Sequence record: ON113170.1
Source of the DNA: Enterococcus phage vB_OCPT_CCS1
Length of the DNA stretch: 64,000 nt
Strand: one strand, 5' to 3'
Shown: positions 4,287-16,108 of the stretch, one piece after another
How positions within the stretch are numbered: position 1 is the stretch's first letter
How the letters are laid out: each line of letters begins with the position of its first letter
Position numbers and translations under genes: made by a program
Notes under the pieces: model-generated
What the model was told of the DNA's origin: nothing
Seen by the model: only the letters and a program-made list of their open reading frames with translations
Databases searched by the model: none

Positions 4287-5822
4287 TTATTTAAGTGCTT
4301 CTTTTACAAAGTCGTATTCTGGTTTATTTAACACAGACAACATCATTTCTTCTGGGGAAGTAACTTCTCCACCTAGTACTTGCGATAAAATATTTGTGGA
4401 GAATCCAGAAACTAACGCAACATTATCTTCGTTAAACCGTACTGGTAGATTATCATGACGAGATTGTACATTCCAGAAAATAATAGCAGGTAACTCGTAG
4501 CCATGATTTGCAAACTCCTGTTTTGCTTGCTCAAAGTTTGTTCTTTGTCCTCGTTCACAAGCAGTATTAAATTCCATATCACTGATAATAATAATCTTGG
4601 ATGGTAGTTCTTCTTGCGGTGTGTTATGCTTAACCGCAGTATCAAGAATCAATCGGAACACTGCTTGAATATTAGTAGAATAGCCAACTCTTGCACGGTT
4701 ATATACTCTCATACGGTCATACACAGTATCCTGTGGATTCAAATATACTAAACTAGGTTCTGATGCAAATGTAATGAAGTGATTAGCGAAAGTACCGTTT
4801 AATTTTTCAGCCGTGTATAATGCCAAACCTTGCGCAACATCCCAAGGGTAAACCCCGTTCGTTTCTGTCCAAGTCATTGAACTAGAAGAATCAGCAACTA
4901 CAATTGCGTTATCTTCCACATCCTTAATAACATCATCTAAAGACTGCCAAGTAGCTTCTAAAGAACGATTTACACCCTGACCTGCACGTGCTTTACGGTA
5001 TGCTCCTGTAATCTCGTGAGGTAATACCAAACTTGCATTAAGCTTTCCTTCACCCGACTCCACCTTTTCCATAAGCGCTTCATATTCATCTGGCATGTGT
5101 AATTGCAAAGCTTTACGGTATTTGAATAATGCTTTAGAGGATACTTGGTTCAAATCAATCTTATGGTATTCCTTGCTTGCTAACCGAACTTCAATTACAT
5201 TTAAGTAATCACGTAATTTAGCAATCATTTTACGATAACGAGTTAGACCTGCTTTGCCTTCAAAACCTAAATAGTTAGCAATACGAGCACCTTGATTACG
5301 TTTCTTACTATTTGGAGAACTTACATTAGCTAACCATTTACCTAGTAATGAAACAGGTTTACCCTCTGACATATTTTTAATATCTGATGTTAGTTGGTTC
5401 CCGATGATACGTGCACCTTCTGTATCCACAAAGTGGATACTACGTTTGTGTGCGTATTCCATAGTTTCAAATAAGTCTGTCCAACGACCAACATATGCCA
5501 TGTACTCCATTAAAGTAACGATTACTTGCTTGTTTTGGTTACGACCATCCACTAAGTATTTGATTGCTTCTAGGTAAGCGGAACGTTCACCCAATCCACC
5601 TAAACGGATATTACGTAAGTGTACCAAATTGCGTAATGCTAACTCTGGGTTTTCAGCATAAGCTTTAGAAAACATGTTTCGTACATCTTCTAAACGACCA
5701 CGCATAGCCCCTGCTTGTGCAAAGAAGTCTAAGTTAGCGTTTAAAGTTGATGTGTAAGTTTTAGCTCCATTTTCTGTATGTCCAACAGTTGTTTCTTCTT
5801 TTAGGTTGTCTAAAAATGACAT
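4287..5822 (-). CDS. Ro60/TROVE-like protein with C-terminal von Willebrand factor A domain (Rsr-like; DUF2828-type vWA protein is the alternative)
   Basis: 511 aa; N-terminal TENGAKTY resembles the Ro60 SEGGTYY region; C-terminal vWA MIDAS DSSSSM...T...IIIISDME; sits immediately downstream of tRNA-mimic (Y RNA-like) ncRNAs. Confidence 0.6.
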   Translation of the reverse strand: MSFLDNLKEETTVGHTENGAKTYTSTLNANLDFFAQAGAMRGRLEDVRNMFSKAYAENPELALRNLVHLRNIRLGGLGERSAYLEAIKYLVDGRNQNKQVIVTLMEYMAYVGRWTDLFETMEYAHKRSIHFVDTEGARIIGNQLTSDIKNMSEGKPVSLLGKWLANVSSPNSKKRNQGARIANYLGFEGKAGLTRYRKMIAKLRDYLNVIEVRLASKEYHKIDLNQVSSKALFKYRKALQLHMPDEYEALMEKVESGEGKLNASLVLPHEITGAYRKARAGQGVNRSLEATWQSLDDVIKDVEDNAIVVADSSSSMTWTETNGVYPWDVAQGLALYTAEKLNGTFANHFITFASEPSLVYLNPQDTVYDRMRVYNRARVGYSTNIQAVFRLILDTAVKHNTPQEELPSKIIIISDMEFNTACERGQRTNFEQAKQEFANHGYELPAIIFWNVQSRHDNLPVRFNEDNVALVSGFSTNILSQVLGGEVTSPEEMMLSVLNKPEYDFVKEALK

Positions 5823-5863
5823 CTGACATCTCTCCTTTGTATGATAGTATTTTATCTAACACC

Positions 5864-5892
5864 ACTATAACATGTAATATTATGTAAGTCAA
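5864..5892 (-). promoter_or_regulatory. promoter TTGACT-17-TATAGT for the Ro60-like gene
   Basis: Motif and spacing. Confidence 0.5.
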
Positions 5893-5989
5893 CGCCTTTT
5901 ATAAATAAAAAACCCATCCATTTAAGAATGAGTTTTTTCATCTTAACCAGTAGTTAAGCGGGGGGGGCGCAACACCTTTTATTTAACTT

Positions 5990-6130
5990 GTCATTATAAT
6001 ATCAAGAACCACAGGCTTAATAATTAGATTTGAAAGGTTTAGTCTATTAGTAGTTGATTGCTGTAGGGTTCTTTATGCTCTGGCAACCTAGTAGGTTAGA
6101 GCTATGGCAAATTGCCAAAACCTTTTTATT
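5990..6130 (-). repeat. third, degenerate copy of the Y-unit 5' module (R1) lacking a tRNA-like domain
   Basis: R1, R2 (6236-6312) and R3 (6418-6500) align as ATAAAA(A/C)GGTTTT-variable palindrome-ATAG-GTTCC/GCTCT...GGAAC/AGAGC-ATAAAGAAC..ACAGC; the outer stem shows two compensatory base-pair changes. Confidence 0.5.
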
Positions 6131-6312
6131 ATGTACAAGAATCTATTTTATACGTTGCTCTAACCAAACTGAGCTACGGGAGGATGATTCCTCCCGGCAG
6201 GACTCGAACCTGCGACCCACGGCTCCATAGGCAATAAAAATCGCTGTTAGATTCTTTATGTTCCGGCACCCATTAAGGATGGAACTATAGCTATGCTAAA
6301 ACCGTTTTATTT
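6131..6312 (-). ncRNA. Y RNA-like ncRNA unit A: permuted tRNA-like domain clamped by a 15-bp helix with a 7-nt bulge
   Basis: Minus strand reads AAGAAUCU[AACAGCG]AUUUUUAU...GCAGGTTCGAGTCCTGC-CGGGAGG-ATCA-TCCTCCCG-TA-GCTCAGTTTGGTTAGAGC-AACG-UAUAAAAUAGAUUCUU. The acceptor strands are perfectly complementary across a 4-nt loop. The 3'-half lying before the 5'-half rules out a normal or intron-containing tRNA. Confidence 0.55.
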
Positions 6313-6500
6313 ATGTAACAAGAACGCATTAACTTTAAGCTTTACCAATTAAGCTATACCACCAATGGTGGCAGTTGGATTCGAACCAACAACTCACATT
6401 TTTCAGATGTATTAGTTTTAAAAATTTGCTGTGGCGTTCTTTATGTTCCGGCTACCTGTTAGGTTGGAACTATGACATATGTCAAAACCTTTTTATCTTG
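6313..6500 (-). ncRNA. Y RNA-like ncRNA unit B: conserved 5' stem-loop module plus a circularly permuted tRNA-like domain (anticodon-like hairpin, T-arm, closed acceptor hairpin, D-arm), closed by a bulged long stem
   Basis: Minus strand reads TACATCTGAAAAATGTG-AGTTG-GTTGGTTCGAATCCAAC-TGCCACC-ATT-GGTGGTA-TA-GCTTAATTGGTAAAGC. The 3' strand GCGTTCTT pairs with AAGAACGC located 5' of the domain. TTGACA-17-TATTAT promoter at 6506-6534. Confidence 0.55.
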
Positions 6501-6505
6501 TCTTT

Positions 6506-6534
6506 ATAATAGCATAAGCTATTTAAACTGTCAA
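6506..6534 (-). promoter_or_regulatory. promoter TTGACA-17-TATTAT driving the Y RNA-like cluster
   Basis: Motif and spacing. Confidence 0.5.
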
Positions 6535-6558
6535 GTATTAATTTAAATATATTGAAAC

Positions 6559-6783
6559 TTATTTAAAAGCTCCAATATATTTAACAGTACCTTTGCATTT
6601 ACGTGCAAAAGCTTCTAGCTCTTTACGAGCACCTAAACGGTCTGGTTGAGAAGACTGTACTGTAACTTCTTTTGGCACAGTAATTTCACGAGTTTTCTTA
6701 ACTGTCTTTCCGTTTTTTAACTTTTGTTCATACTCTTCTGTACGAGTAGAAGTTGTTGAAATAATTCCATAAAATTTAGACAT
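6559..6783 (-). CDS. hypothetical basic protein (74 aa)
   Basis: GGAGG RBS 9 nt upstream of the ATG. Confidence 0.45.
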   Translation of the reverse strand: MSKFYGIISTTSTRTEEYEQKLKNGKTVKKTREITVPKEVTVQSSQPDRLGARKELEAFARKCKGTVKYIGAFK

Positions 6784-6813
6784 GTTATGTGACCTCCGGT
6801 CATTTTATTTTAA

Positions 6814-6895
6814 TGGGGAGTGATGGAGTTGCACCACCCGAGCTTTCGCAACTGATTTACAGTCAGCCCCGCTACTACTTACGGTATAACTCCCC
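6814..6895 (-). tRNA. tRNA-Tyr(GTA), class II
   Basis: Acceptor GGGGAGT/ACTCCCC; anticodon arm GCTGA-CTGTAAA-TCAGT; long variable arm; atypical T-loop TGCAACT. Confidence 0.5.
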
Positions 6896-7091
6896 GTATA
6901 AGTATGTATATATCAATACAATGTACAAGAACTTTTAGTGAGGTAGCTCTCATAGTGTATTAATGGGGTACATTGTGTAACTTCAACTAGTATTGCCTCA
7001 CACGTGACTAGTCTTATATACACAATGCCTACATACAACCCGATAGACCACCCTTGGTACGCATATTAAGAGGCGCAGGGTGGTACGAATA

Positions 7092-7162
7092 TATGGATTG
7101 CAGGATTTGAACCCGCACCTTTTTGACGGAAGCCAAAAATACTACCCTTATATTAAATCCAC
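7092..7162 (-). tRNA. tRNA-Gly(TCC), probable
   Basis: Acceptor GTGGATT/AATCCAT; loop CTTCCGT; T-arm GCGGGTTCAAATCCTGC. Confidence 0.45.
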
Positions 7163-7282
7163 ATAGTGTTAATAGGCGGGTACCCGACAGCGAAGTATCA
7201 TTCCTGTCTTGTCATTCTCCTATTAACTCCATAATACCTTGCCTAGAGTTGAGCTAGGTCTCACATTTATCGAAGGTACTAA

Positions 7283-7355
7283 TCGGGAAAGCAGGACTTG
7301 AACCTGCGACCCCACGCTCCCAAAGCGTGTGCGCTACCAACTGCGCTATTTCCCG
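7283..7355 (-). tRNA. tRNA-Pro(TGG)
   Basis: CGGGAAA-TA-GCGCAGTTGGTAGCGC-CACGC-TTTGGGA-GCGTG-GGGTC-GCAGGTTCAAGTCCTGC-TTTCCCG. Confidence 0.75.
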
Positions 7356-7370
7356 TTAACTTATACATAC

Positions 7371-7420
7371 ATTATAACACAAACTTACATGCTGTAAACA
7401 ACTATTTGTAAGTTTTTTTA
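7371..7420 (-). promoter_or_regulatory. promoter module: A-tract, hairpin, -35 TTTACA, 17 nt, extended -10 TGTTATAAT, upstream of tRNA-Pro
   Basis: Related copies at 15925-15975 and 16436-16470. Confidence 0.45.
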
Positions 7421-7433
7421 ATTTATCCATTCG

Positions 7434-7510
7434 GGACAGTGTGCTTTAACCATTCAGCCACCCGCAGGGGCAACCCGCAGGACGGGAATCGAACCCGTAT
7501 AACACTGTCC
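7434..7510 (-). ncRNA. tRNA-mimic (Y RNA-like) module: 9-bp closing stem, T-arm, closed acceptor-like hairpin, D-arm
   Basis: GGACAGTGT-TAT-ACGGGTTCGATTCCCGT-CCTGCGGG-TTGCC-CCTGCGGG-T-GGCTGAATGGTTAAAGC-ACACTGTCC. No anticodon arm; 5' and 3' ends base-pair. Confidence 0.55.
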
Positions 7511-7675
7511 TATTGGATAGGCTTGTGTACCTGTCATCTTCCGATTACACACACCTAGTCTAGTTACCGTACCAATAGATTTGACAGGAATCTAGGGTAA
7601 CGCCCAATATGGTGTTAATTCACCTCGTATTCTGTTACAGGTTTGCAACCCTGAACAAGGATGACCAATCCTAAT

Positions 7676-7742
7676 GATATGCGAGGGGATTTGAACCCCT
7701 ATCTACTTCATAGGTCACTTTATCCACTTAAGCTACGCATAC
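7676..7742 (-). ncRNA. truncated tRNA-like element (67 nt; acceptor, D-arm and T-arm present; anticodon arm reduced to about 16 nt)
   Basis: GTATGCG-TA-GCTTAAGTGGATAAAGT-GACCTATGAAGTAGAT-AGGGGTTCAAATCCCCT-CGCATAT. Confidence 0.4.
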
Positions 7743-7799
7743 CTATTTAATTTCTAGCTAGGTAACTAAATTCACTGCACCTTGCGCAGAGTACAGCTA

Positions 7800-7872
7800 T
7801 GGAGCATAGCGGACTTGAACCGCTGACATCTACCTTGCAAGGGTAGCGCTCTCCCAACTGAGCTAATGCCCC
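7800..7872 (-). tRNA. tRNA-Ala(TGC)
   Basis: GGGGCAT...CTACC-CTTGCAA-GGTAG...AGCGGTTCAAGTCCGCT-ATGCTCC. Confidence 0.75.
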
Positions 7873-7877
7873 GAAAA

Positions 7878-7950
7878 CACCTCCGCTGAGATTTGAACTC
7901 AGAATGCGGGATTAGAAATCCTGTGGTTTATCCAATTAGCCTACGGAGAT
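7878..7950 (-). tRNA. tRNA-Arg(TCT)
   Basis: Acceptor ATCTCCG/CGGAGGT; loop TTTCTAA; T-arm CTGAGTTCAAATCTCAG. Confidence 0.65.
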
Positions 7951-7954
7951 ATAC

Positions 7955-8119
7955 TTACTTAAACGGAAGATAAATTGTTTGACCAATTCTAATTTTATTA
8001 GGGTCTTTAATATTCCTATTCTGACCATGTAACCAAATTAGTCTCCATAACCAAGGCTTGCCATAATATTTTCTAGCAATAGAATACAATGTGTCACCTT
8101 TTTTAACTGTGTATTTCAT
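7955..8119 (-). CDS. stand-alone LysM-domain mini-protein (54 aa)
   Basis: Not in the ORF track (under 60 aa). ATG at 8119 with GGGGGT RBS; translates MKYTVKKGDTLYSIARKYYGKPWLWRLIWLHGQNRNIKDPNKIRIGQTIYLPFK, the classic LysM pattern. Confidence 0.5.
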   Translation of the reverse strand: MKYTVKKGDTLYSIARKYYGKPWLWRLIWLHGQNRNIKDPNKIRIGQTIYLPFK

Positions 8120-8148
8120 AACAATTACCCCCTAATTTATAAATATGG

Positions 8149-8517
8149 CTATATATAGGATACTCCTGTAAACAATTCAATTGCTTCAATTTCAGTATGG
8201 AAGTTTTCCCATTCTAAACATTCATAGAAATCTTGTAAGATATGCTTGTCTTTCCTGTAAACAGTCTCACCTTTATGGGCTTTCTCACAGATTTCTCTAA
8301 CAGCATCCACATTATATTTACCACCAGTTTTATACTGTTCTAAACCAGAATCTAGTAAAACTCGTTGTACTTCTTCACTCTTATCTCCTGCTTTCCAAGA
8401 GTCAAAAGCTTTATCATACAATGTATCTTCCATGTTTTCACCTTCTACTTCCATGATTGATTGAATAAATCTTTGCCACTTAGAAGGCTCTTTGTGTTTA
8501 CCTTTACGAAAACTCAT
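8149..8517 (-). CDS. hypothetical protein (122 aa)
   Basis: GGAGG RBS. Confidence 0.5.
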   Translation of the reverse strand: MSFRKGKHKEPSKWQRFIQSIMEVEGENMEDTLYDKAFDSWKAGDKSEEVQRVLLDSGLEQYKTGGKYNVDAVREICEKAHKGETVYRKDKHILQDFYECLEWENFHTEIEAIELFTGVSYI

Positions 8518-8544
8518 TATTAGCCTCCATTATCTTTAATGAAC

Positions 8545-8631
8545 CGAGGAGGAGGGACTCGAACCCCCAAACGCTTTTACACGTCTACATGATTTCAAAT
8601 CACGCTGAATACCAGTTATGATACTCCCCGA
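8545..8631 (-). tRNA. tRNA-Ser(TGA), class II, atypical D-arm
   Basis: Acceptor CGGGGAG/CTCCTCG; anticodon arm CGTGA-TTTGAAA-TCATG; long variable arm. Confidence 0.5.
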
Positions 8632-8741
8632 AAAAGAAACTGATTGACTAGTACTGTTAGTTGACTAGTCAACCGGAACTACTTAAACCGAACTCTTTAA
8701 ACAGCTTTAGTAGTTATTATTTAGGTTTTTAAATAAACAAC

Positions 8742-9002
8742 TTACCAAAACCAAACTAGATTTAATGCTAGTCGTTTACTAATAATAGGTGATTTTCTAT
8801 GTCTAACCGATTTAAACTTACGTACATTCCCCTTATATGGTGTAAAGTCAATCTTACAAGGTTCAACATAATTAAATTTACGGTTAGCTCGTTTAATTAC
8901 TGCTTGCTTTTGTTTAGAAGCTTTAATTTCTTTTTCAAATGCTTCTTTTTCAATGTTGTTAGCTATGGTTGCTAAATGTTCAGTCATAAAGCTCATGTCC
9001 AT
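8742..9002 (-). CDS. hypothetical basic protein (86 aa)
   Basis: AAGGAG RBS; lies just downstream of tRNA-Ser(GGA). Confidence 0.4.
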   Translation of the reverse strand: MDMSFMTEHLATIANNIEKEAFEKEIKASKQKQAVIKRANRKFNYVEPCKIDFTPYKGNVRKFKSVRHRKSPIISKRLALNLVWFW

Positions 9003-9021
9003 CTCTCCTTACACGTTCTAT

Positions 9022-9108
9022 GGAAGGCATGGGATTCGAACCCACACATGCTGTTACACATCTACTTGGTTTCCAACCAAGCCTCTTTACCGTTTGAGTA
9101 ACCTTCCG
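9022..9108 (-). tRNA. tRNA-Ser(GGA), class II
   Basis: GGAAGGT-TA-CTCAAACGGTAAAGAG-CTTGG-TTGGAAA-CCAAG, long variable arm, GTGGGTTCGAATCCCAT-GCCTTCC. Confidence 0.7.
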
Positions 9109-9202
9109 TCTTGGGAGCAGGCGGGTTTGTGTCAAGTACACAATACCTAATCTTCTGTGCATGTTGTTCCCTAGGCTTTATGCACACCCTACTATCTGCA
9201 TA

Positions 9203-9388
9203 CTAACAGACCTGCCAATTTTCTAACACTTTTTCTAATGCTTCGTATGGACACATTACTGTCTTACCGTGAACACCATGTATTCTCAAAATAATATAAT
9301 GTTCATTTATCTCAGAGGTAACAAAGTATATCTTGTCTTTCACTAAACCTAAACTTCCGTTTAAACCAATGAATTTTAAATACATCAT
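9203..9388 (-). CDS. hypothetical protein (61 aa)
   Basis: AAGGAGG RBS. Confidence 0.4.
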   Translation of the reverse strand: MMYLKFIGLNGSLGLVKDKIYFVTSEINEHYIILRIHGVHGKTVMCPYEALEKVLENWQVC

Positions 9389-9539
9389 GTTACCTCCTTA
9401 TTATGTATAACCCATGAAGCATCATGGGGGGACTGTAGTATGCCCAACCTGCGGGGATGCTCCGCTCTGAATCCGTAGAAATCAGCCACAATTCGATATT
9501 TATTTAATGAAAAAATTAGATAGGATTCGACTGCTTGAC

Positions 9540-9640
9540 AAAGGCAGTCTATGGAGTAGACGGGACTCGAACCCGTGTCCTAACGTAGAACCATACAAAA
9601 TTCTACGGGCGTAGTTACTAGTTTTAATCTACGTTAAGGT
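9540..9640 (-). ncRNA. tRNA-like/Y-like structured element: canonical T-arm (ACGGGTTCGAGTCCCGT) followed by a closed hairpin GACTGC-CTTTGTCAA-GCAGTC, preceded by a 7-bp hairpin CGTAGAA...TTCTACG; no matching 5' acceptor strand
   Basis: Hand folding; the 3' acceptor CTACTCC has no GGAGTAG partner anywhere upstream. Confidence 0.35.
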
Positions 9641-10132
9641 TACAACTAATAACTGAAATTACCTTAACTGAGTGGTAAAGCCTCTCCTGAGTTATCCACT
9701 TTTACCTCAGCGTTGTCGGTTGATGAGTCCTCTAGGTAGAACCGACCCTAGTCTAGAGGGGTAAGTGTGTAGCTAGTCTAAAACTAGGCTACAGCTAATA
9801 ATTCTTCGTTTTTAGCAGTTATATTTACTGCGATGATTAAGTCATCACTCTGCCCGCTATTCATATACTCCTTACGCCAGTCGAAACCAAAACTACCCCA
9901 ACATAAGAATTTCTTTTGACTAACCCTACCCTTCCGGCAGGGTCTAATCAAAAGTATACAATTAAAAAAATGAAAATGAGTTACGGAAAATGTAACGTCT
10001 CCACCACCGGACTATAAGGGTAAGTTGTTCCGGTCTTTAACCTAAGTACTTTACTTAAATCTAACAGGACAGCCTTCATTACGTAAACTACTTAACCATG
10101 TAAAACGTAAAGGTCAATTTCCGTTGACCTAA

Positions 10133-10206
10133 TGCAAGAGGGGGGATTCGAACCCCCACTGAATAGATTCTAAGTCTACTTCCTCTGCCAGTTGGGATAC
10201 TCTCGC
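10133..10206 (-). tRNA. tRNA with anticodon TAG (Leu-type anticodon) but a short 5-nt variable arm; atypical
   Basis: GCGAGAG...GTAGA-CTTAGAA-TCTAT-TCAGT-GGGGGTTCGAATCCCCC-CTCTTGC. Confidence 0.45.
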
Positions 10207-10290
10207 ATAATAACAGCCCTACCCAACCGCTGTTCTGCTAGCATATAGCTTGCAGGCTTTTTATCTGTGTTATAAAAACCAGAAAGGCTA

Positions 10291-10374
10291 TACGGGTAAC
10301 AGGAGTCGAACCTGCATGTCACAAGGGACAATGGATTTTAAGTCCACAGCGTATACCAGTTCCGCCATACCCGC
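10291..10374 (-). tRNA. tRNA-Leu(TAA), class II
   Basis: GCGGGTA...GTGGA-CTTAAAA-TCCAT, long variable arm, GCAGGTTCGACTCCTGT-TACCCGT. Confidence 0.7.
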
Positions 10375-10552
10375 ATAATCACTTTTTAAACTAGATTATT
10401 TATGATTTCCCACTTCTGAAAAAAATACCACTTTATATATCAACATTTTTCTTATGAATGGGTTAAGATATGTTTTAACGAAAAAGAGGCTAAAAGAGTA
10501 TTTCCTCAAAATTTTTTGTCAAGTTAATCTAGTAAGGAAAAGTGTAACCTTA

Positions 10553-10623
10553 TGTGACTGCTCAGAATCGAACTGAGATTCATGTTTCCACAGAACACTG
10601 CCTTACCGTTAGGCTACAGTCAC
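10553..10623 (-). tRNA. tRNA-His(GTG) with encoded G-1
   Basis: (G)GTGACTG-TA-GCCTAACGGTAAGGC-GTGTT-CTGTGGA-AACAT...TCAGTTCGATTCTGA-CAGTCAC. Confidence 0.75.
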
Positions 10624-10637
10624 CATCATGTGTTCCT

Positions 10638-10676
10638 TACAAGAATTACTATACAGCATCTTGTAAGGAAAGTCAA
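10638..10676 (-). promoter_or_regulatory. promoter TTGACT-17-TATAGT with the -10 box embedded in a 10-bp palindrome CCTTACAAGA/TCTTGTAAGG (operator-like), upstream of tRNA-His
   Basis: Motif, spacing and dyad symmetry. Confidence 0.45.
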
Positions 10677-10695
10677 CACTTAAATGTAATTTTAT

Positions 10696-10917
10696 TTAAA
10701 AAAGTTTTGATGAATCTAATTGAGAGAAACTTTCAGGTAGAGAACCTAGTTCTTCCATATACTCTTGGTCAATCTCATAAACAGATAACTCGGTTACTTC
10801 GTTTTCAATAGTAAGTTTCATTGCTTCTGCTGTTTGTATACTGTGTCCTTCTATTTGAAGTTTATCATCAAGATAAATACCTTCCCAGTCTTCTGCAACT
10901 ACATAGTCTGCTTTCAA
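10696..10917 (-). CDS. hypothetical acidic protein (73 aa; TTG start as in the ORF track)
   Basis: Frame offset by one from the upstream ORF, which stops 9 nt away. Confidence 0.35.
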   Translation of the reverse strand: MKADYVVAEDWEGIYLDDKLQIEGHSIQTAEAMKLTIENEVTELSVYEIDQEYMEELGSLPESFSQLDSSKLF

Positions 10918-10925
10918 GATATTAC

Positions 10926-11177
10926 CTACTTTCTTCTCAATTTCTGATAAAAATTATTATTCTTGTAATCATCCTCGTGGGCATAGAATTTTTTCATGTC
11001 ATATGTCCAACAAGTTTCTTCTACTCGTTTATGATGTGTCAATGTTACTTCGTCATCAAAACAACCTTGATTTAATTTATGCCTGTAATTTCTATTAACC
11101 ATTCTTTTTATATCTCGAACAGTTGAATCTTTCATACAAACATAACGGTAATAGGGTTTTCTGTAACTTCTACTCAT
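10926..11177 (-). CDS. hypothetical basic protein (83 aa)
   Basis: AAGGAGG RBS. Confidence 0.45.
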   Translation of the reverse strand: MSRSYRKPYYRYVCMKDSTVRDIKRMVNRNYRHKLNQGCFDDEVTLTHHKRVEETCWTYDMKKFYAHEDDYKNNNFYQKLRRK

Positions 11178-11331
11178 TGTAAGTCCTCCTTAATAGATAC
11201 TTACAATTTAGACAATACTTTCTTCACAGGAACCACTCCTTATTAATAAAAGCTACCTCCCGAAAAACGTTTCTTCACCAAAGTGTAAGACGTAAACTAA
11301 CGACAGGTCATAGTTTTCCAATTAAGGCAAA

Positions 11332-11405
11332 TACCAGTGAGAGGATTTGAACCTCTGACACCCGCCTTATCAAGACGATGCTCTAACCAACTGAGCTACA
11401 CTGGT
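11332..11405 (-). tRNA. tRNA-Ile(GAT)
   Basis: ACCAGTG-TA-GCTCAGTTGGTTAGAGC-TCGTC-TTGATAA-GGCGG-AGAGGTTCAAATCCTCT-CACTGGT. Confidence 0.7.
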
Positions 11406-11558
11406 GTGACCCATGTGTCAGGACTTTCACCTGTTCTCGGGGTGCCCCGCCTCTCTACTAATCTCCTCATTCGGTGCCCCTACTAGAGTGACTAGAGATA
11501 GTTAGCAATAAAAATTATATATCATGAATCAAATTTTTACTGCATCCTATATACACGA

Positions 11559-11630
11559 TACCGTCTACAGGATTTGAACCTGTGACATCCACCTTGTAAG
11601 GGTGACGTTCTCCCACTGAACTAAGACGGT
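11559..11630 (-). tRNA. tRNA-Val(TAC)
   Basis: ACCGTCT-TA-GTTCAGTGGGAGAAC-TCACC-CTTACAA-GGTGG-ACAGGTTCAAATCCTGT-AGACGGT. Confidence 0.7.
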
Positions 11631-11699
11631 GAAATATGGAACCCTACCAGAGGATTTCTTTCGGTATTACAGTCACCTCGGCATGAACAAAGCCAGATA

Positions 11700-11760
11700 T
11701 TGAGGTCTGGACTTCTCACGCCCCGGGAGTCGAACCCAGTATAGACAAACCATATTTTAT
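11700..11760 (-). ncRNA. tRNA-like fragment (T-arm CTGGGTTCGACTCCCGG plus 3' acceptor GGCGTGA without a 5' partner)
   Basis: Hand folding. Confidence 0.3.
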
Positions 11761-11854
11761 ACGGAAGACAGGATTCGAACCTGCGATATAGGAGTTTTAG
11801 TGCACTTATTGTCTCCACGGTATCCGTTGCGTATGCCCTACACGCCACTTCCGT
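11760..11854 (-). ncRNA. long (95 nt) atypical tRNA-like gene: acceptor ACGGAAG/CTTCCGT, D-arm and T-arm canonical, but no resolvable anticodon arm (contains GGAG...CTCC with a 20-nt insert)
   Basis: Hand folding; could be an unusual class II tRNA or a decoy. Confidence 0.35.
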
Positions 11855-11861
11855 ATGTTAA

Positions 11862-11934
11862 CCGACAGTAAAGGAATCGAACCTCTATCACTAGATTCGT
11901 AGTCTAGTATCCTATCCAATTGAACGAACTGTCG
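11862..11934 (-). tRNA. tRNA-Arg(ACG)
   Basis: CGACAGT...CTAGA-CTACGAA-TCTAG...AGAGGTTCGATTCCTTT-ACTGTCG. Confidence 0.6.
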
Positions 11935-12036
11935 CTCTAGGCTAGCAATTACGCAGACTGACTATGGGCACCTTCGTCCCGTCCCCTGTAAGTGCCCTCC
12001 TACAGGTTGTCCGTGGCACCGCAATGTACTAACCGA

Positions 12037-12110
12037 TGTCCCCACAGGGATTTGAACCCCGAACCTCCCGATTAAAAGTCGGGTGCTCTAGCCGATTGAG
12101 CTATGAAGAC
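12037..12110 (-). tRNA. tRNA-Lys(TTT)
   Basis: GTCTTCA-TA-GCTCAATCGGCTAGAGC-CCCGA-CTTTTAA-TCGGG-CGGGGTTCAAATCCCTG-TGGGGAC. Confidence 0.7.
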
Positions 12111-12159
12111 AGTTGTGTTTTTCAAGATAACCCTCTCGAAAAACCGTTACTAATAGAAA

Positions 12160-12242
12160 AACTAAGGGTCTCGACTGACAGATTTGAACTGCCTGCTCCT
12201 CCTAAGAGGCGTGTTACCAAAGCCATACACCAACTCTTCGAG
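12160..12242 (-). ncRNA. aberrant tRNA-like element (good T-arm GGCAGTTCAAATCTGTC, weak acceptor pairing 5/7, no standard anticodon arm)
   Basis: Hand folding; overlaps the 3' end of tRNA-Lys(CTT). Confidence 0.3.
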
Positions 12243-12243
12243 A

Positions 12244-12318
12244 ATATCCCCTACAGGATTCGAACCTGTGACCCCCTGATTAAGAGTCAGGTGCTACCAC
12301 CAACTGAGCTAAGGAGAT
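12244..12318 (-). tRNA. tRNA-Lys(CTT)
   Basis: ATCTCCT...CCTGA-CTCTTAA-TCAGG-ACAGGTTCGAATCCTGT-AGGGGAT. Confidence 0.65.
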
Positions 12319-12334
12319 AAGATTACCAATAGCT

Positions 12335-12412
12335 AGTTAAGCCTTACGGAATCGAACCGCCATGAGGTTATGAAGCTCACATAGACCACTAGACACAAAA
12401 CTAGCTTATTGA
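12335..12412 (-). ncRNA. aberrant tRNA-like element (T-loop TTCGATT; acceptor 5/7)
   Basis: Hand folding. Confidence 0.3.
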
Positions 12413-12510
12413 TAAAATTCTATATAGATAATTGTATGCAATGTTCGCACTAACTAACCAGATAACTAGCCAATCATTCAAAACATTAATTTGTGAGTTT
12501 CCGCTCACAA

Positions 12511-12582
12511 TGCTGATTGAGAGAATCGAACTCCCATTCCCGGGTTACAAAGCCGGAGTAATAGCCGTTATACTAAATCAGC
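12511..12582 (-). tRNA. tRNA-Thr(TGT)
   Basis: GCTGATT-TA-GTATAACGGCTATTAC-CCGGC-TTTGTAA-CCCGG-GGGAGTTCGATTCTCTC-AATCAGC. Confidence 0.65.
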
Positions 12583-12584
12583 GT

Positions 12585-12604
12585 AACCCCTCAATAGAGG
12601 GGAA
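12585..12604 (-). terminator. hairpin CCCCTC-AATA-GAGGGG after the AAA ATPase stop codon
   Basis: Stem-loop. Confidence 0.3.
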
Positions 12605-12607
12605 TTA

Positions 12608-13699
12608 TTATACTAGGTTACCATACCCGTAGGTATTTGTTTGAGCTTGTTTAAACATGATGCTCTTGATAGTTAAGTCGTTGTACTTTTCATCGTCTTC
12701 ATCATCAAGGTACACATCAACGTTAACGTTCTTACCGGAAATACCGATTGTTTCGTCTTTACCAACTGTTAAGTCTTTACTGTTGAATGATACATCAAAG
12801 TAGATGCTATCTTCTTTTGTACGACTACCGAACGAAACTCTGTCACCGAATAAATCTAAGCTTCGAGAGTTGATTACAACAGGTTGTAACCCACCTTCGA
12901 ATTGAATAGTTACTGTGTAATATTGATTTTCAATATTAAGGATGTTTAAGTCAGCAATAGCTTCACCAAATGGGATACCAAAGTTTAATTCCAACGCAAT
13001 AGCTCGTAAGCAGTCATAATTTAACTTAATTCTACGGCTAAACTTAACAACACTGTCAATTTCACCATAGTAAGCTTCGTCTAACTTATCTTGCAAGTAA
13101 GTACGAATTTCATCTGCATCAGGATATTCGAAACGTAAATGGTAATGAAAACGTCCCGGACGGTTAAGCATAAAGTCATTTACACGATTTAAGCTATTAA
13201 CAGTAAGAGCGTAGATACGTTTACGTTGTGATAAACCATCGAATAAGCTCAATAGTTTTTCTTGTGGTTCACGACCGTCACGGTCATTGAATACTTTTTC
13301 AAACTCATCGAACAGGATAAGAGACTCTTGGTCAATACTGTCAATAAATTCTGCAATCCCCGGATAAGCTTCTGTAATTAAGATAACAGGCATACCCTCT
13401 TCAATAGCTCGTTGAGATAAGATTTGAGTAAATAGTGATTTACCAATCCCTTTGTCTCCACTTAAAATGATTCCTAAGCTACGATTAATTGTTTTAAATG
13501 TGTGTAGCACTTTTTCAATTTTAGCTAAACGGTCACCGTAAACTTTAGGTTCTTTCAAATCAAAATCGTCTGTTACTACTAGCGAGAACCCTGACATTTG
13601 ATTGAACCGAACTTTATAAGTTTGCGCAGGTAACTTATCATAAGTTTTAAGGTCGTTTGCATAAATTTCATAGTTACTACCATAGTTGATTACTTTCAT
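12608..13699 (-). CDS. AAA+ family ATPase (classical AAA clade)
   Basis: Start taken at MKVINYG (AAGGGG RBS). Walker A GDKGIGKS, Walker B LILFDEFE, second region of homology NRPGRFHYHLRF. Embedded in the tRNA operon. Confidence 0.75.
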   Translation of the reverse strand: MKVINYGSNYEIYANDLKTYDKLPAQTYKVRFNQMSGFSLVVTDDFDLKEPKVYGDRLAKIEKVLHTFKTINRSLGIILSGDKGIGKSLFTQILSQRAIEEGMPVILITEAYPGIAEFIDSIDQESLILFDEFEKVFNDRDGREPQEKLLSLFDGLSQRKRIYALTVNSLNRVNDFMLNRPGRFHYHLRFEYPDADEIRTYLQDKLDEAYYGEIDSVVKFSRRIKLNYDCLRAIALELNFGIPFGEAIADLNILNIENQYYTVTIQFEGGLQPVVINSRSLDLFGDRVSFGSRTKEDSIYFDVSFNSKDLTVGKDETIGISGKNVNVDVYLDDEDDEKYNDLTIKSIMFKQAQTNTYGYGNLV

Positions 13700-13738
13700 A
13701 AATATTCCCCTTATTCGTGTTTTACTAGCATTTGCTAA

Positions 13739-13812
13739 TGGAGAGGGGTGGAATTGAACCACCGACCCCTAGGGTTTCAATCTAGTGCTCTAACCTACTG
13801 AGCTACCTCTCC
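13739..13812 (-). tRNA. tRNA-Phe(GAA)
   Basis: GGAGAGG-TA-GCTCAGTAGGTTAGAGC-CTAGA-TTGAAAC-CCTAG-GGTGGTTCAATTCCACC-CCTCTCC. Confidence 0.6.
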
Positions 13813-13933
13813 GTGTCAATTTGGACTTATCCCCCACGTGGTTACTAAGATAAGTCCTATGCCTTTGAAGTGTGGATACTCAAAAATGAGTACAGGTACT
13901 AAAAATCTGATGACAAGTCAGATTTATATCATA

Positions 13934-14004
13934 AGCAGAAGGTGAGATTCGAACTCACATTCAGGGGTTTGCAATCCCTAGCCTTAACCACTTGGCTACT
14001 TCCG
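13934..14004 (-). tRNA. tRNA-Cys(GCA)
   Basis: GCGGAAG-TA-GCCAAGTGGTTAAGGC-AGGGA-TTGCAAA-CCCCT-GTGAGTTCGAATCTCAC-CTTCTGC-T. Confidence 0.7.
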
Positions 14005-14017
14005 CAATATCAAAATA

Positions 14018-14089
14018 CACGCTGTGAAGGATTCGAACCCCCGTCTTCCGGGTTGGAGCCGGAAATGATAGCCACTACACCAACAGCGC
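14018..14089 (-). tRNA. tRNA-Trp(CCA)
   Basis: GCGCTGT...TCCGG-CTCCAAC-CCGGA...GGGGGTTCGAATCCTTC-ACAGCGT. Confidence 0.65.
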
Positions 14090-14164
14090 AAGATTCGGAG
14101 GGGAGGGACTAGCAACCCTCCGAAAGATGTAAGATAATGAGAGATTAAAACATACCACTATTAA

Positions 14165-14215
14165 AAGTGGAATAGGTAATTAAGGATTCGAACCTTACAA
14201 GCCCTTACTGCTTAC
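14165..14215 (-). ncRNA. mini tRNA-like remnant (acceptor plus T-arm only, about 48 nt) immediately downstream of a promoter
   Basis: AGGTAAG-CAGTAAGGGCTTG-TAAGGTTCGAATCCTTA-ATTACCT. Confidence 0.3.
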
Positions 14216-14226
14216 CTTGTAAACTT

Positions 14227-14255
14227 ATAGTATCATGTGTTGTACCGAAAGTCAA
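14227..14255 (-). promoter_or_regulatory. promoter TTGACT-17-TACTAT
   Basis: Motif and spacing; a CTTGTAA motif lies nearby. Confidence 0.4.
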
Positions 14256-14274
14256 CACTTTTTATAAAAATAAT

Positions 14275-14294
14275 AGGGAGAAATATTTCTCCCT
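14275..14294 (-). terminator. perfect palindrome AGGGAGAAATATTTCTCCCT followed by a U-rich tract (minus sense), between tRNA-Met and the upstream promoter
   Basis: Hairpin plus AUUAUUUUUAUAAAA. Confidence 0.45.
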
Positions 14295-14300
14295 AAAAAA

Positions 14301-14373
14301 TGGACTACTTGGGAATCGAACCCAAACCTGTCAGTTATGAGCTGACGGCTCTGACCTACTGAGCTAATAGTCC
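14301..14373 (-). tRNA. tRNA-Met(CAT) (Met or lysidine-Ile cannot be distinguished)
   Basis: GGACTAT-TA-GCTCAGTAGGTCAGAGC-GTCAG-CTCATAA-CTGAC-TGGGTTCGATTCCCA-GTAGTCC. Confidence 0.75.
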
Positions 14374-14406
14374 GTGTAATAATACCACGAAATAAACCTT
14401 AGTAAG

Positions 14407-14508
14407 TCATACAGTCCCAGAAAGGGAGGCATATGATACTAGTGTTGAGTGCCATAATCGTTTAATAAATGTGACTGAGAGAGTAATAAATTTCTTAGGC
14501 ATGTCCAT
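14407..14508 (-). CDS. possible 33-aa peptide MDMPKKFITLSVTFIKRLWHSTLVSYASLSGTV
   Basis: AAAGGAGG RBS 5 nt before the ATG; flanked by a 14-bp inverted repeat (GGGAGGCATATG / CATATGCCTCC). Confidence 0.3.
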   Translation of the reverse strand: MDMPKKFITLSVTFIKRLWHSTLVSYASLSGTV

Positions 14509-14580
14509 ATGCCTCCTTTCCAATAATGATAGTTTTAAGATATAAACAGAATAAATAAAAGAGAAAATAATAATGAATAA

Positions 14581-14652
14581 TAGCGCATGAGAGAGTCGAA
14601 CTCTCGATTCCGGTTCGAAAGACCGGTGTCTTGACCGCTTGACCAATGCGCC
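14581..14652 (-). tRNA. tRNA-Glu(TTC)
   Basis: GGCGCAT-TG-GTCAAGCGGTCAAGAC-CCGGT-CTTTCGA-ACCGG-GAGAGTTCGACTCTCTC-ATGCGCT. Confidence 0.75.
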
Positions 14653-14657
14653 ATAAA

Positions 14658-14732
14658 CGAGCTATATGGGACTTGAACCCATGACCTTCTCCGTGACAGG
14701 GAGACGAGCACTCCTGACTGCTCCAATAGCCC
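14658..14732 (-). tRNA. tRNA-Asp(GTC)
   Basis: GGGCTAT-TG-GAGCAGTCAGGAGTGCTC-TCTCC-CTGTCAC-GGAGA-ATGGGTTCAAGTCCCAT-ATAGCTC. Confidence 0.75.
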
Positions 14733-14769
14733 AATGTTTCCCCAACCACCGCCACCTAGGGGATTCGTA

Positions 14770-14890
14770 CGTCTACGTGAGTTTTTTGGTTATAGTTCCT
14801 TGTTTAAGACAAGGAAGTACGAGTGGACTACCAATTTACCACTCTGCGGTTCTGATTGCGGTAGGTGGGATATGTAAGATAAAAAGACCA
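14770..14890 (-). pseudogene. degenerate tRNA-like sequence (mutated T-loop GTACGAATCC; 7-bp anticodon-like stem TTCCTTG-TCTTAAA-CAAGGAA)
   Basis: Hand folding. Confidence 0.3.
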
Positions 14891-14899
14891 CTCTTAGAA

Positions 14900-15917: not shown

Positions 15918-15924
15918 TAATACT

Positions 15925-15975
15925 AATATAGCATAACATTACAAAGTTGTAAACACCTTTTTGTAAGTTTTTTTG
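15925..15975 (-). promoter_or_regulatory. promoter module: A-tract, -35 TTTACA, 17 nt, TGCTATATT, driving the ORF-free 1 kb segment
   Basis: Motif and spacing; near-identical to the module at 7371-7420. Confidence 0.45.
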
Positions 15976-15987
15976 ATTTTTTTTTGA

Positions 15988-16075
15988 TGGAAGGTAAGGG
16001 GGTCGAACCCTTACACCGGATTTCTCCGACCTAACTGATTAGCAATCAGCCCTATTACCATTTGAGTAACCTTCC
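15988..16075 (-). tRNA. tRNA-Ser(GCT), class II
   Basis: GGAAGGT...GCTGA-TTGCTAA-TCAGT, long variable arm, AAGGGTTCGACCCCCTT-ACCTTCC. Confidence 0.65.
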
Positions 16076-16085
16076 AAAAACAAAA

Positions 16086-16108
16086 AGGGAACCCCTGTAA
16101 TTAAACAG
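16086..16108 (-). terminator. hairpin CCCCTGT-AATTAA-ACAGGGG followed by UUCCCUUUUUGUUUUUGG
   Basis: Minus-sense terminator just upstream of tRNA-Ser(GCT). Confidence 0.4.

What the first reader, a model, noticed from the sequence alone, without database searches (positions are those of the whole stretch)
5990..6500. Three copies of an 80-nt structured repeat whose stem varies by compensatory base changes
R1 (6050-6130), R2 (6236-6312) and R3 (6418-6500) align well. On the minus strand they read ATAAAA(A/C)GGTTTT-small variable palindrome-ATAG-outer stem-AACCTNNNAGGT-(N)GCC-outer stem-ATAAAGAAC...ACAGC. The outer stem is GTTCC/GGAAC in two copies and GCTCT/AGAGC in the third, which is two compensatory base-pair changes. 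That argues for selection on RNA structure rather than a DNA-level repeat. Each repeat forms the 5' part of a Y-like unit; the most downstream copy (R1) has lost its tRNA-like domain.
Basis: seen in the sequence. Interest (0 to 1): 0.75.

Follow-up and report, generated by a model that had tools for sequence, protein, structure and literature searches.

The report
Structured leader of phage Y-RNA repeats
The three repeats are real, base-pair-conserving RNA elements: each is the front end of one gene in a tandem array of Y-RNA-like small RNAs that an Enterococcus phage encodes just upstream of its Ro60-like RNA-binding protein, and each carries a two-hairpin leader that I found in no RNA family library or searchable paper.

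Summary
Observation confirmed. Three minus-strand copies lie at 6443-6497, 6258-6311 and 6075-6130, each running on into about 20 more conserved bases.

Each copy has two parts:
- A 55-nt leader module: A-rich-GGUU, hairpin P1, then a long hairpin P2 with an invariant 3' GCC bulge.
- The 5' strand of a basal stem (AAGAA-NN), followed by an invariant ACAGCAA.

Across 27 distinct modules from related phages, 92% of cells pair. P2's outer stem pairs in every sequence, with double changes at 4 of 5 pairs. The basal stem pairs with NN-UUCUUG 80-140 nt downstream in 27 of 27 distinct units.

Units A and B enclose tRNA-like domains that give sub-threshold Rfam YrlA hits. Unit C is a short hairpin type, conserved in relatives rather than degenerate.

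The gene 240 nt downstream (DUF2828/DUF7788) folds like Ro60. ACAGCAA-type units accompany this protein family in Listeria, Bacillus, Staphylococcus, Mycobacterium and Salmonella phages. The leader module occurs only in Schiekvirus-like Enterococcus phages, once per unit.

Verdict: a new variant of the phage Ro/Y-RNA system. What the leader module does is inferred, not shown.

The parts
6506..6534 (-). Promoter of the array (TTGACA, 17 nt, TATTAT, with TG upstream)
   Evidence: 11 of 12 consensus match, the only strong minus-strand site upstream of the array. Conserved in all related loci. The start site about 7 nt downstream is inferred.
6443..6497 (-).
   Evidence: Model R1 hit of 67.8 bits (this copy is in the training set). 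Covariation. Coordinates.
6425..6444 (-). Unit A Y-core 5' strand: AUAAAGAACGC, then C-ACAGCAA
   Evidence: Pairs with GCGUUCUU at 6313-6327. ACAGCAA is invariant in the units found with an ACWGC-based pattern.
6312..6419 (-). Unit A tRNA-like domain (T arm, acceptor-like hairpin, D arm) and basal 3' strand GCGUUCUUGUUACAU (6313-6327)
   Evidence: Rfam YrlA RF02553 at 34.3 bits, E = 2e-5, below the gathering score of 69. The MFE fold recovers the arms.
6258..6311 (-).
   Evidence: R1 hit of 75.5 bits. Coordinates.
6241..6259 (-). Unit B Y-core 5' strand: AUAAAGAAUCU, then A-ACAGCGA
   Evidence: Pairs with AGAUUCUU at 6131-6144.
6126..6241 (-). Unit B tRNA-like domain with a 7-bp acceptor-like stem, and basal 3' strand AGAUUCUUGUACAU (6131-6144)
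   Evidence: Rfam YrlA at 47.1 bits, E = 4e-9, below the gathering score.
6075..6130 (-).
   Evidence: R1 hit of 68.0 bits. Coordinates.
5999..6076 (-). Unit C, the short hairpin-type Y-like RNA: AUAAAGAACC-CU-ACAGCAA, AU-rich loop, CUGU-GGUUCUUG
   Evidence: Basal stem AAGAACC/GGUUCUU plus ACAG/CUGU. The same unit type occurs in L002-L007 and in more distant loci.
5903..5935 (-). Terminator-like hairpin plus U run that ends the array
   Evidence: Read from the sequence. Relatives have a perfect AACUCAU/AUGAGUU stem followed by U6. It was not reported by the scan, which requires at least 3 G-C pairs.
5864..5892 (-). Separate promoter of the Ro-like gene (TTGACT, 17 nt, TATAGT)
4287..5822 (-). 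Ro60-like protein (Pfam DUF2828 + DUF7788), the presumed protein partner
   Evidence: Pfam. PHROG 850 'RNA-binding protein'. AlphaFold2 model with pLDDT 92, whose top Foldseek PDB matches are Ro60 (1yvr, TM 0.64) and Thermus phage phiLo Ro60.

Best explanation
The window comes from a Schiekvirus-like Enterococcus phage. One sigma-70-type promoter (6534-6506) drives a non-coding transcript that carries three tandem Y-RNA-like units and ends at a terminator (about 5935-5903). This lies just upstream of a separately promoted gene for a Ro60-fold protein (DUF2828).

Each 'repeat' is the conserved front of one unit and has two parts.

(a) A 55-nt leader module. It consists of a single-stranded A-rich-GGUU segment, hairpin P1, and directly abutting it a roughly 10-bp hairpin P2 interrupted by an invariant 3' GCC bulge.

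(b) The purine-rich 5' strand of the unit's basal stem (AAGAA-NN), followed by an invariant ACAGCAA. The basal stem closes over a variable effector domain: tRNA-like in units A and B, an AU-rich loop in unit C. It does so by pairing with NN-UUCUU-G-(N)UACAU.

Inferred: the basal stem plus ACAGCAA is the docking site of the Ro-like protein, as the bulged terminal helix is for Ro60 on canonical Y RNAs. The variable domains recruit different partners.

Inferred, with less confidence: the leader module acts in cis on the unit that follows it. It would serve as a fast-folding 5' domain that marks and protects the unit's 5' end after cleavage in the A/U-rich linker, and keeps neighbouring near-identical AAGAA/UUCUU strands from mispairing. 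Its invariant GG and GCC residues may also offer a docking surface for a protein.
For: Shown:
- Three copies with compensatory changes.
- Covariation of P1 and P2 in 27 distinct modules, with independent RNAalifold agreement.
- The first two variable basal-stem positions pair in 27 of 27 distinct units, with 2-4 pair types each. Overall 68 of 81 cells pair against 39.8 +/- 3.6 when 3' strands are shuffled among units.
- YrlA hits on units A and B, including alignment of the 3' CUUGU segment to the model's Ro-stem strand.
- A single strong promoter and no minus-strand promoter inside the modules.
- The partner protein has a Ro60 fold and is 31-35% identical to mycobacteriophage proteins annotated 'Ro-like RNA binding protein'.
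- ACAGCAA preceded by a helix strand that covaries with a downstream partner occurs 3-4 times within 2 kb, on the same strand, next to this protein family in Listeria, Mycobacterium, Salmonella FelixO1, Bacillus and Staphylococcus phages.
- The module model hits exactly once per unit in 13 module-bearing loci. It hits nowhere else in the 64-kb window or in about 0.8 Mb of other DNA.

Supporting a cis role for the module: it also precedes the first unit, right after the promoter, where nothing needs to be separated from it.

Literature:
- Bacterial and phage Y RNAs are encoded next to Ro60, often as polycistronic precursors that combine a tRNA-like type and a hairpin type (PMC4201824).
- Phage phiLo Ro60 binds two upstream Y-like RNAs and host PNPase (PMC12135203).
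- A Listeria Herelleviridae phage has highly transcribed non-coding regions within 2 kb upstream of its Rsr-like gene (PMC12282133).
Against: - No expression or binding data exist for this phage. Transcription, processing sites and the protein-RNA contact are all inferred.
- The units fail two defining YrlA criteria: they lack the GNCGAAN0-1G motif and score below Rfam's gathering threshold.
- The module is dispensable for the system as a whole. Arrays next to Ro-like proteins of 42-56% identity lack it, including ones from Firmicutes phages. A general protective or insulating role therefore cannot be essential.
- Invariant unpaired residues (GG, GCC, A-rich tract) suggest a more specific recognition or tertiary fold than a simple protective hairpin.
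Confidence: 0.7

Rival explanations
1. The module is only a processing spacer. A host or phage endonuclease recognises P1/P2 and the GCC bulge, cuts on both sides, and the module is discarded. Mature Y-like RNAs then start at the basal stem.
For: - The module sits between units in a single-promoter array.
- It is flanked by conserved single-stranded A/U-rich segments (UACAUAAUAAAAC and CAUAAAG).
- Module-less arrays use own promoters or short AU linkers instead.
- Bacterial Y RNAs are processed from polycistronic precursors (PMC4201824).
Against: - The module is kept in front of the first unit, directly after the promoter, and is absent after the last unit. So it belongs to the downstream unit rather than to the gap.
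- Module-less polycistronic arrays are evidently processed without it.
Confidence: 0.25
2. The module is a small self-cleaving ribozyme of an undescribed class that cuts the array into unit lengths.
For: - About 50 nt, with two helices and roughly a dozen invariant unpaired residues (GG, GCC bulge, A tract).
- One copy per unit of a tandem non-coding array.
- RtcB-type ligase genes, which act on cyclic-phosphate ends, lie downstream in two related loci.
Against: - No Rfam ribozyme family matches even at E up to 10.
- No supported pseudoknot or junction that would build an active site. The GG:GCC pairing is invariant and so untestable, and it looks sterically tight.
- Module-less arrays manage without it.
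Confidence: 0.07
3. P2 with its 3-nt bulge is an additional or alternative docking site for the Ro-like protein or for a lineage-specific partner, making each unit bivalent.
For: - The sequence around the bulge is conserved inside a helix: A:U, U-G, C:G, then GCC.
- From memory of Green et al. 1998 and Stein et al. 2005, canonical Ro60 recognises a helix distorted by bulges. PMC12135203 states the bulged-helix recognition.
- phiLo Ro60 binds its two Y-like RNAs with different stoichiometries and forms higher-order complexes (PMC12135203).
- Presence of the module is all-or-none by lineage.
Against: - The universally conserved element next to DUF2828 genes is the basal stem plus ACAGCAA, not P2.
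- No gene in the immediate neighbourhood distinguishes module-bearing from module-less loci.
Confidence: 0.2
4. The repeats act at the DNA level, as operators, promoters or recombination sites, and the apparent RNA structure is incidental.
For: - AAAAC-G-GUUUU is a near-palindrome.
- A helix-turn-helix gene lies downstream.
- Array copy number varies by recombination between repeats.
Against: - Stem sequences change freely while pairing is kept.
- About 21 G-U pairs would be A-C mismatches on the other strand.
- No minus-strand promoter match falls inside the modules.
Confidence: 0.03

Closest known systems
Bacterial and mycobacteriophage YrlA / YrlB Y RNAs (Rfam RF02553; Chen et al. 2014, PMC4201824)
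   Same: - Encoded next to, and on the same strand as, a Ro60-type protein.
- Several units per locus in one precursor.
- One type encloses a permuted tRNA-like domain (T arm, acceptor-like hairpin, D arm) inside a stem formed by the 5' and 3' regions. Another type is a plain hairpin.
- The 3' strand carries CUUG, as in the YrlA model.
   Different: - No GNCGAAN0-1G motif. An invariant ACAGCAA follows the basal-stem 5' strand instead.
- Scores of 34-47 bits against a gathering score of 69.
- The partner protein is Pfam DUF2828, not TROVE, by sequence.
- Each unit carries an extra 5' two-hairpin module that has no counterpart in YrlA.
Thermus phage phiLo Ro60 with Yrl1/Yrl2 (PMC12135203; PDB 9KOP, 9L5Y)
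   Same: - A phage Ro60-fold protein with Y-like RNAs immediately upstream.
- It is among the top structural matches of the window protein.
- Proposed hijacking of host PNPase.
   Different: - phiLo's RNAs were picked by a CGAA motif and have a stem-bulge-stem shape.
- Only two units.
- No leader module described.
Metazoan Y RNAs bound by Ro60
   Same: - A terminal stem with conserved bulges serves as the protein platform, with a variable loop as the effector part.
- CUUG on the 3' strand (recalled from memory for hY RNAs).
   Different: - Transcribed singly by RNA polymerase III.
- GGUCCGA motif.
- No tRNA-like domain and no 5' leader hairpins.
5'-terminal stabiliser stem-loops of Firmicutes RNAs, and two-hairpin cis-acting phage RNAs such as HK022 put (both recalled from memory, not tested here)
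   Same: Compact hairpins at the 5' end of a transcript that act in cis on the RNA downstream.
   Different: - Stabilisers have no conserved bulge or invariant single-stranded residues.
- put RNA acts on RNA polymerase and occurs once per operon, not once per unit.

Membership tests
YrlA (Rfam RF02553) | Reaches Rfam's gathering score (69 bits) | tested here: not met
   47.1 bits (6126-6241) and 34.3 bits (6312-6419). The E-values of 4e-9 and 2e-5 are significant, but the scores are below the cut-off.
YrlA (Chen et al. 2014) | Within 4 kb of a Ro60 orthologue, on the same strand | tested here: met
   The array ends about 80 nt upstream of the start codon, on the same strand. The protein has a Ro60 fold. 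Pfam calls it DUF2828/DUF7788, not TROVE.
YrlA (Chen et al. 2014) | tRNA-like domain: T arm, acceptor-like hairpin and D arm, in that order | tested here: met
   Units A and B align to these model elements (GGUUCGAAUCC-type T loop, AGCUCAGUUUGGUUAGAGC D arm). Unit C has none.
YrlA / bacterial Y RNAs | GNCGAAN0-1G motif near the 5' end (proposed Ro contact) | tested here: not met
   The only CGAA in each unit is in the T loop. The 5' region reads CAUAAAGAA-NNN-N-ACAGCAA.
Y RNA in the functional sense | Bound and stabilised by the Ro60-type protein | not testable with these tools
   Needs immunoprecipitation or gel-shift assays.
Ro60 / TROVE proteins (the partner) | HEAT-repeat ring plus von Willebrand A domain | tested here: met
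   AlphaFold2 pLDDT 92.2, pTM 0.91. Foldseek matches: 1yvr at TM 0.64/0.63, 2i91, and 9l5y (phiLo Ro60), with probability 1.0. There is no sequence-level hit to PDB or to Pfam TROVE.
Known self-cleaving ribozymes, riboswitches and other Rfam 15 families (for the leader module) | Covariance-model match | tested here: not met
   No ribozyme, riboswitch or other structured cis-element family matches a module on the RNA (minus) strand at E up to 10 over 5850-7080. The overlapping entries there are weak, far-below-threshold chance hits (MIR390, group-II-D1D4-4, a tRNA hit running out of unit A's tRNA-like domain).
Sigma-70 promoter or intrinsic terminator (for the module) | Consensus hexamers, or a GC-rich hairpin plus a U run, on the transcribed strand | tested here: not met
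   No minus-strand promoter or terminator site falls inside 6075-6130, 6258-6311 or 6443-6497.

The most novel reading that the evidence does not exclude
The leader module (A-rich-GGUU, P1, P2 with the GCC bulge) is a new functional RNA class with activity of its own. One possibility is a small self-cleaving ribozyme that punctuates Y-RNA arrays. Another is a dedicated docking domain that brings a host nuclease or a defence component onto every Ro-like/Y-like particle. Separately, the ACAGCAA-type units would define a large unrecognised Y-RNA family that partners DUF2828 proteins in hundreds of phages, including FelixO1-like phages in which the protein counters the ppl defence system.
Probability: 0.15. 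Interest if true: 0.8.

Novelty: new variant of a known kind. Interest (0 to 1): 0.55.

Why it matters
Ro60/Y-RNA particles are known in animals, bacteria and a few phages. Which RNAs partner the very common phage DUF2828 'Ro-like' proteins (706 phage records) has hardly been described.

This locus gives a clean, covariation-supported anatomy for such RNAs: a basal stem, an invariant ACAGCAA, and exchangeable effector domains. The same anatomy extends to Listeria, Bacillus, Staphylococcus, Mycobacterium and FelixO1-type phages.

It also reveals an extra 5' domain that is confined to one Enterococcus phage lineage and is present once per unit. That gives an experimentally tractable handle on how phage Y-like RNAs are matured or what they recruit, using comparisons of units with and without the module.

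A FelixO1-type Ro60-like protein was reported to counter an anti-phage system (bioRxiv 10.1101/2024.10.10.617714). The RNAs may therefore be part of a counter-defence device in therapeutic Enterococcus phages.

Tried and rejected
- **Closing helix GGUUUU with AAGAACC.** MFE folds of single repeats propose it. I rejected it because GG is invariant, while the bases after AAGAA covary with the downstream UUCUU strand instead.
- **Pairing of one leader's GUUUU with the next leader's AAAAC.** Variants GGUUCG and GGUUCU are not compensated in the next leader. Their C instead pairs with G inside an extended P1 (columns 13-27).
- **Pseudoknot GG(U) with the GCC bulge.** Both sides are invariant, so it cannot be tested by covariation. 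The geometry looks tight. Left open.
- **Promoter inside each module.** P1 often reads UUGACA, but there is no -10 box at the right distance and no hit in the scan.
- **CRISPR-repeat mimic.** AAAAC-G-GUUUUAG resembles type II repeat ends (from memory). P1 covaries freely, so its sequence is not conserved. Dropped without a formal test.
- **First collection pattern was off by one base.** GCC-N5-C was used instead of GCC-N4-C. The 24 genome-contig hits and 2 viral hits match none of the stricter module patterns p1-p3, and the three I scanned with the module model (L019, L022, L039) gave no hit. I treat all of them as chance.
- **Corrected pattern.** It gave mostly single chance hits in metagenomes. 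Only L043/L093, L061 and L142 are real arrays.
- **L004.** A phage with a 35%-identical protein has coding sequence, and no RNA family hit, directly upstream. Its downstream side was not examined for ACAGCAA units.
- **Terminal helix (AUGUA/UACAU) replaced by P2.** It is present in some module-less units (L011), but helix 1 is inconsistent there too, so I do not claim this.

Full report
**Setting.** The window is 94-98% identical to Enterococcus phages of the genus Schiekvirus (Herelleviridae), such as phiSHEF16, EFDG1 and iF6. Genes in this part run on the minus strand. The window carries 25 tRNA genes, a tmRNA and a ROOL RNA.

**The observation.** The repeat finder returns one family of three 69-nt direct repeats at 6058-6126, 6241-6309 and 6426-6494. 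They are 61-77% identical and spaced 183 and 185 nt apart. The outer stem is GUUCC/GGAAC twice and GCUCU/AGAGC once, which is two pairs changed on both sides.

**Anatomy of one repeat unit.** Printing the array from this window and from relatives showed a strictly modular layout. A sigma-70-type promoter (TTGACA, 17 nt, TATTAT; 6534-6506) is followed by units. Each unit has five segments:
- an A-rich leader ending in GGUU;
- a short hairpin P1;
- directly abutting it, a longer hairpin P2, made of a 5-bp outer stem closed by an invariant G:C, a 4-7 bp inner stem, and an invariant GCC bulge on the 3' side;
- C(A/G)UAAAGAA-NNN-N-ACAGC(A/G)A;
- a variable domain, and then NNN-UUCUUG-(N)UACAU.

It joins a 55-nt leader module to the 5' strand of a long-range stem.

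**The leader module is a conserved RNA structure.** I collected modules from related loci:
- isolates (L005-L007);
- viral contigs (L001-L003, L043);
- contigs carrying Ro-like proteins of 66-73% identity (L008-L010, L014);
- one metagenome contig (L061).

This gave 27 distinct sequences. On a plain MAFFT alignment, 92.1% of cells pair, against 78.4 +/- 0.9% in column shuffles (0 of 500 shuffles reach it). When partners are slid by 1-3 columns, only 27-47% pair. Nine of 14 pairs have changes on both sides. The P2 outer stem is paired in all 27 sequences, with two pair types at four of its five positions. RNAalifold predicts the same two hairpins without guidance.

About 21 cells are G-U, and about one is A-C, so the structure belongs to the minus-strand transcript. 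In four sequences, P1 extends through a C:G pair where the others have U-U (columns 13-27). This shows that P1 runs right up to P2.

Some residues are invariant and unpaired: GG(UU) before P1, the GCC bulge, and much of the A tract. The A:U, U-G and C:G pairs next to the bulge are also nearly fixed.

**The 3' third of the repeat is the 5' strand of a Y-type basal stem.** I chose each unit's 3' anchor only by the conserved UUCUUG, not by complementarity. With that choice, the two bases after AAGAA pair with the two bases before UUCUU in 27 of 27 distinct units (C:G, U:A, G:C, U-G at the first position; C:G, G:C at the second). Counting the third base as well, 68 of 81 cells pair, against 39.8 +/- 3.6 when 3' strands are shuffled among units (0 of 5000). 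In the window the stems are:
- unit A: AAGAACGC/GCGUUCUU;
- unit B: AAGAAUCU/AGAUUCUU;
- unit C: AAGAACC/GGUUCUU plus ACAG/CUGU.

An MFE fold of the whole presumed transcript recovers unit A completely.

**What the stems enclose.** Units A and B match Rfam YrlA (Y RNA-like, RF02553) at 34.3 and 47.1 bits (E = 2e-5 and 4e-9 in a 1.2-kb search). They show the T arm, acceptor-like hairpin and D arm in the YrlA order, and their CUUGU aligns to the model's 3' stem strand. Both scores are below the gathering score of 69.

Unit C encloses only an AU-rich loop. Short units of 70-86 nt are present in all relatives, and they are the only type seen upstream of the gene in a Listeria phage. Unit C is therefore a conserved class, comparable to the hairpin-type YrlB/Yrn2 RNAs described beside YrlA (PMC4201824). 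It is not a degenerate copy.

**The protein partner.** The gene starting at 5822 (511 aa) has its own promoter. It matches Pfam DUF2828 and DUF7788 and PHROG 850 'RNA-binding protein'. It has no sequence hit to PDB chains or to Pfam TROVE. An AlphaFold2 model built from 43 homologues (pLDDT 92, pTM 0.91) has Ro60 structures as its twelve best Foldseek PDB matches. These include Xenopus Ro60 (1yvr, TM 0.64) and Ro60 of Thermus phage phiLo. By tblastn the family occurs in 706 phage records. Among them are mycobacteriophage genes annotated 'Ro-like RNA binding protein', at 31-35% identity.

**Wider distribution of the two parts.** The Y core is general and the module is not.

Loci with Ro-like proteins of 43-56% identity (L011-L013, L015, L016) have arrays of AAGAA/UUCUU-type or AAGAG/CUCU-type units with ACAGCAA. 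They have no module, and some units have their own promoters.

Phages further afield carry three or four units each within 2 kb of the gene, on its strand. In these units the stem sequence differs completely between groups, while ACAGCAA is constant:
- Listeria LMTA-94: AGGAAUC/GAUUCCU and others;
- Mycobacterium phage Jubie: GGACAC/GUGUCC and others, one unit carrying a YrlA hit;
- Salmonella phage FelixO1: AGACCAA/UUGGUCU and others;
- Bacillus Thrax2;
- a Staphylococcus phage.

These units were located by searching for an ACWGC[A/G/U]A-type pattern. The constancy of ACAGCAA is therefore partly a consequence of how they were found, and units without the motif would have been missed.

A covariance model of the module alone hits once per unit in 13 loci (window 3, L001 2, L002 4, L003 3, L005 3, L006 4, L007 3, L008 2, L009 6, L010 4, L014 2, L043 5, L061 3). 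It hits nowhere else in the window, in the distant DUF2828 loci, or in about 0.5 Mb of unrelated metagenomic DNA.

Kochikohdavirus phages have the flanking small ORF and the HTH gene adjacent to each other, with neither array nor Ro-like gene between them. The array plus gene therefore behaves as a cassette.

**Mechanism.**
- Shown: a covarying two-hairpin leader, a covarying basal stem, tRNA-like inserts, one promoter, and a Ro60-fold neighbour.
- Inferred by analogy with Ro60/Y RNA systems (PMC4201824, PMC12135203): the protein binds the basal stem and ACAGCAA region, and the variable domains engage other factors such as exoribonucleases.
- Inferred for the module: it acts in cis on the unit downstream. 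It is retained in front of the first unit immediately after the promoter, and it is missing after the last unit.

I favour a role for the module as a fast-folding 5' domain. It would define and protect the 5' end after cleavage in the A/U-rich linker. It would also keep neighbouring near-identical stem strands apart, and its invariant GG and GCC residues may serve as a docking surface. The rivals are a discarded processing spacer, a second protein-binding site, a self-cleaving ribozyme, and a DNA-level element. The last of these is disfavoured by the strand-specific G-U pairs and the free change of stem sequence. No Rfam ribozyme or riboswitch family matches the module at E up to 10.

**Literature context.**
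- A Listeria Herelleviridae phage shows highly transcribed non-coding regions within 2 kb upstream of its Rsr-like gene. The authors suggested these may be Y RNAs (PMC12282133).
- In the FelixO1-like phage Bas63, the Ro60-like gp130 counters the ppl defence system. The authors guessed that neighbouring 'tRNA' genes might be Y RNAs (bioRxiv 10.1101/2024.10.10.617714).
- Searches for DUF2828 together with Y RNA, and for YrlA together with phage, returned nothing about such RNAs. I came across neither the ACAGCAA core nor the leader module in the papers I read or in Rfam 15.

**Verdict.** It is a new variant of a known kind (phage Ro/Y-RNA systems), with a new lineage-specific structured 5' domain of unproven function.

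Noticed in passing
L180 2262-2530; L181 3487-3760; L182 3728-4520; L183 1448-1960; L184 3535-3760: Units with a constant ACAGCAA after a group-specific, covarying stem strand accompany DUF2828 Ro-like genes in Listeria, Mycobacterium, Salmonella FelixO1, Bacillus and Staphylococcus phages. This looks like a large Y-like RNA family that Rfam does not capture.
   Followed up: partly
window 15309-15895 (-): Full-length ROOL RNA (Rfam RF03087, 267.8 bits) inside the phage tRNA region.
   Followed up: no
window 9549-9899 (-): Phage-encoded tmRNA (142.7 bits; tag peptide AKNEELLAVA), among 25 tRNA genes spanning 7091-16419.
   Followed up: no
window 7420-7520 (-): A third weak YrlA-like hit (30.1 bits). 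It is a permuted tRNA-like element closed by GGACAGUGU/ACACUGUCC, with no ACAGCAA and no leader module. It contains a 12-nt tandem repeat (7457-7481).
   Followed up: partly
window 6816-6893 (-): Degenerate tRNA-like sequence with a long variable arm and a GUA anticodon-like loop. It scores 27.7 bits, just under Rfam's tRNA cut-off, and ARAGORN does not call it.
   Followed up: no
window 5942-6001 (-): An insertion of about 55 nt that is absent from most relatives; L001 has a different insert at the same place. It duplicates the array promoter's -10 box and leader (UAUUAUAAUGACAAGUUAAAUAAAAGG) and is followed by a GCG-C6-CGC hairpin and a second hairpin. It may be a remnant of a lost unit.
   Followed up: partly
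L001, L002, L006, L009, L010, L043 (arrays upstream of the Ro-like gene): Unit number varies from 2 to 6 between related phages. L001 carries a recombinant that joins unit B's module to unit C's core. L009 and L043 have an internal extended -10 box (UGAUAUUAU) before their fourth unit.
   Followed up: yes
L179 (Enterococcus phage EF1TV) 2701-3219: In Kochikohdavirus the 74-aa ORF and the HTH gene that flank the array in this window are adjacent, with no array and no Ro-like gene between them. The array plus gene therefore behaves as an insertable cassette.
   Followed up: partly
L013 5607-7512; L180 5440-6651; L009 and L010 from about 6431: RtcB-type RNA ligase genes lie downstream of the Ro-like gene in two related loci. 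A Gad2 (anti-Gabija) domain protein lies downstream in two others. This hints at an RNA-repair or counter-defence neighbourhood.
   Followed up: no
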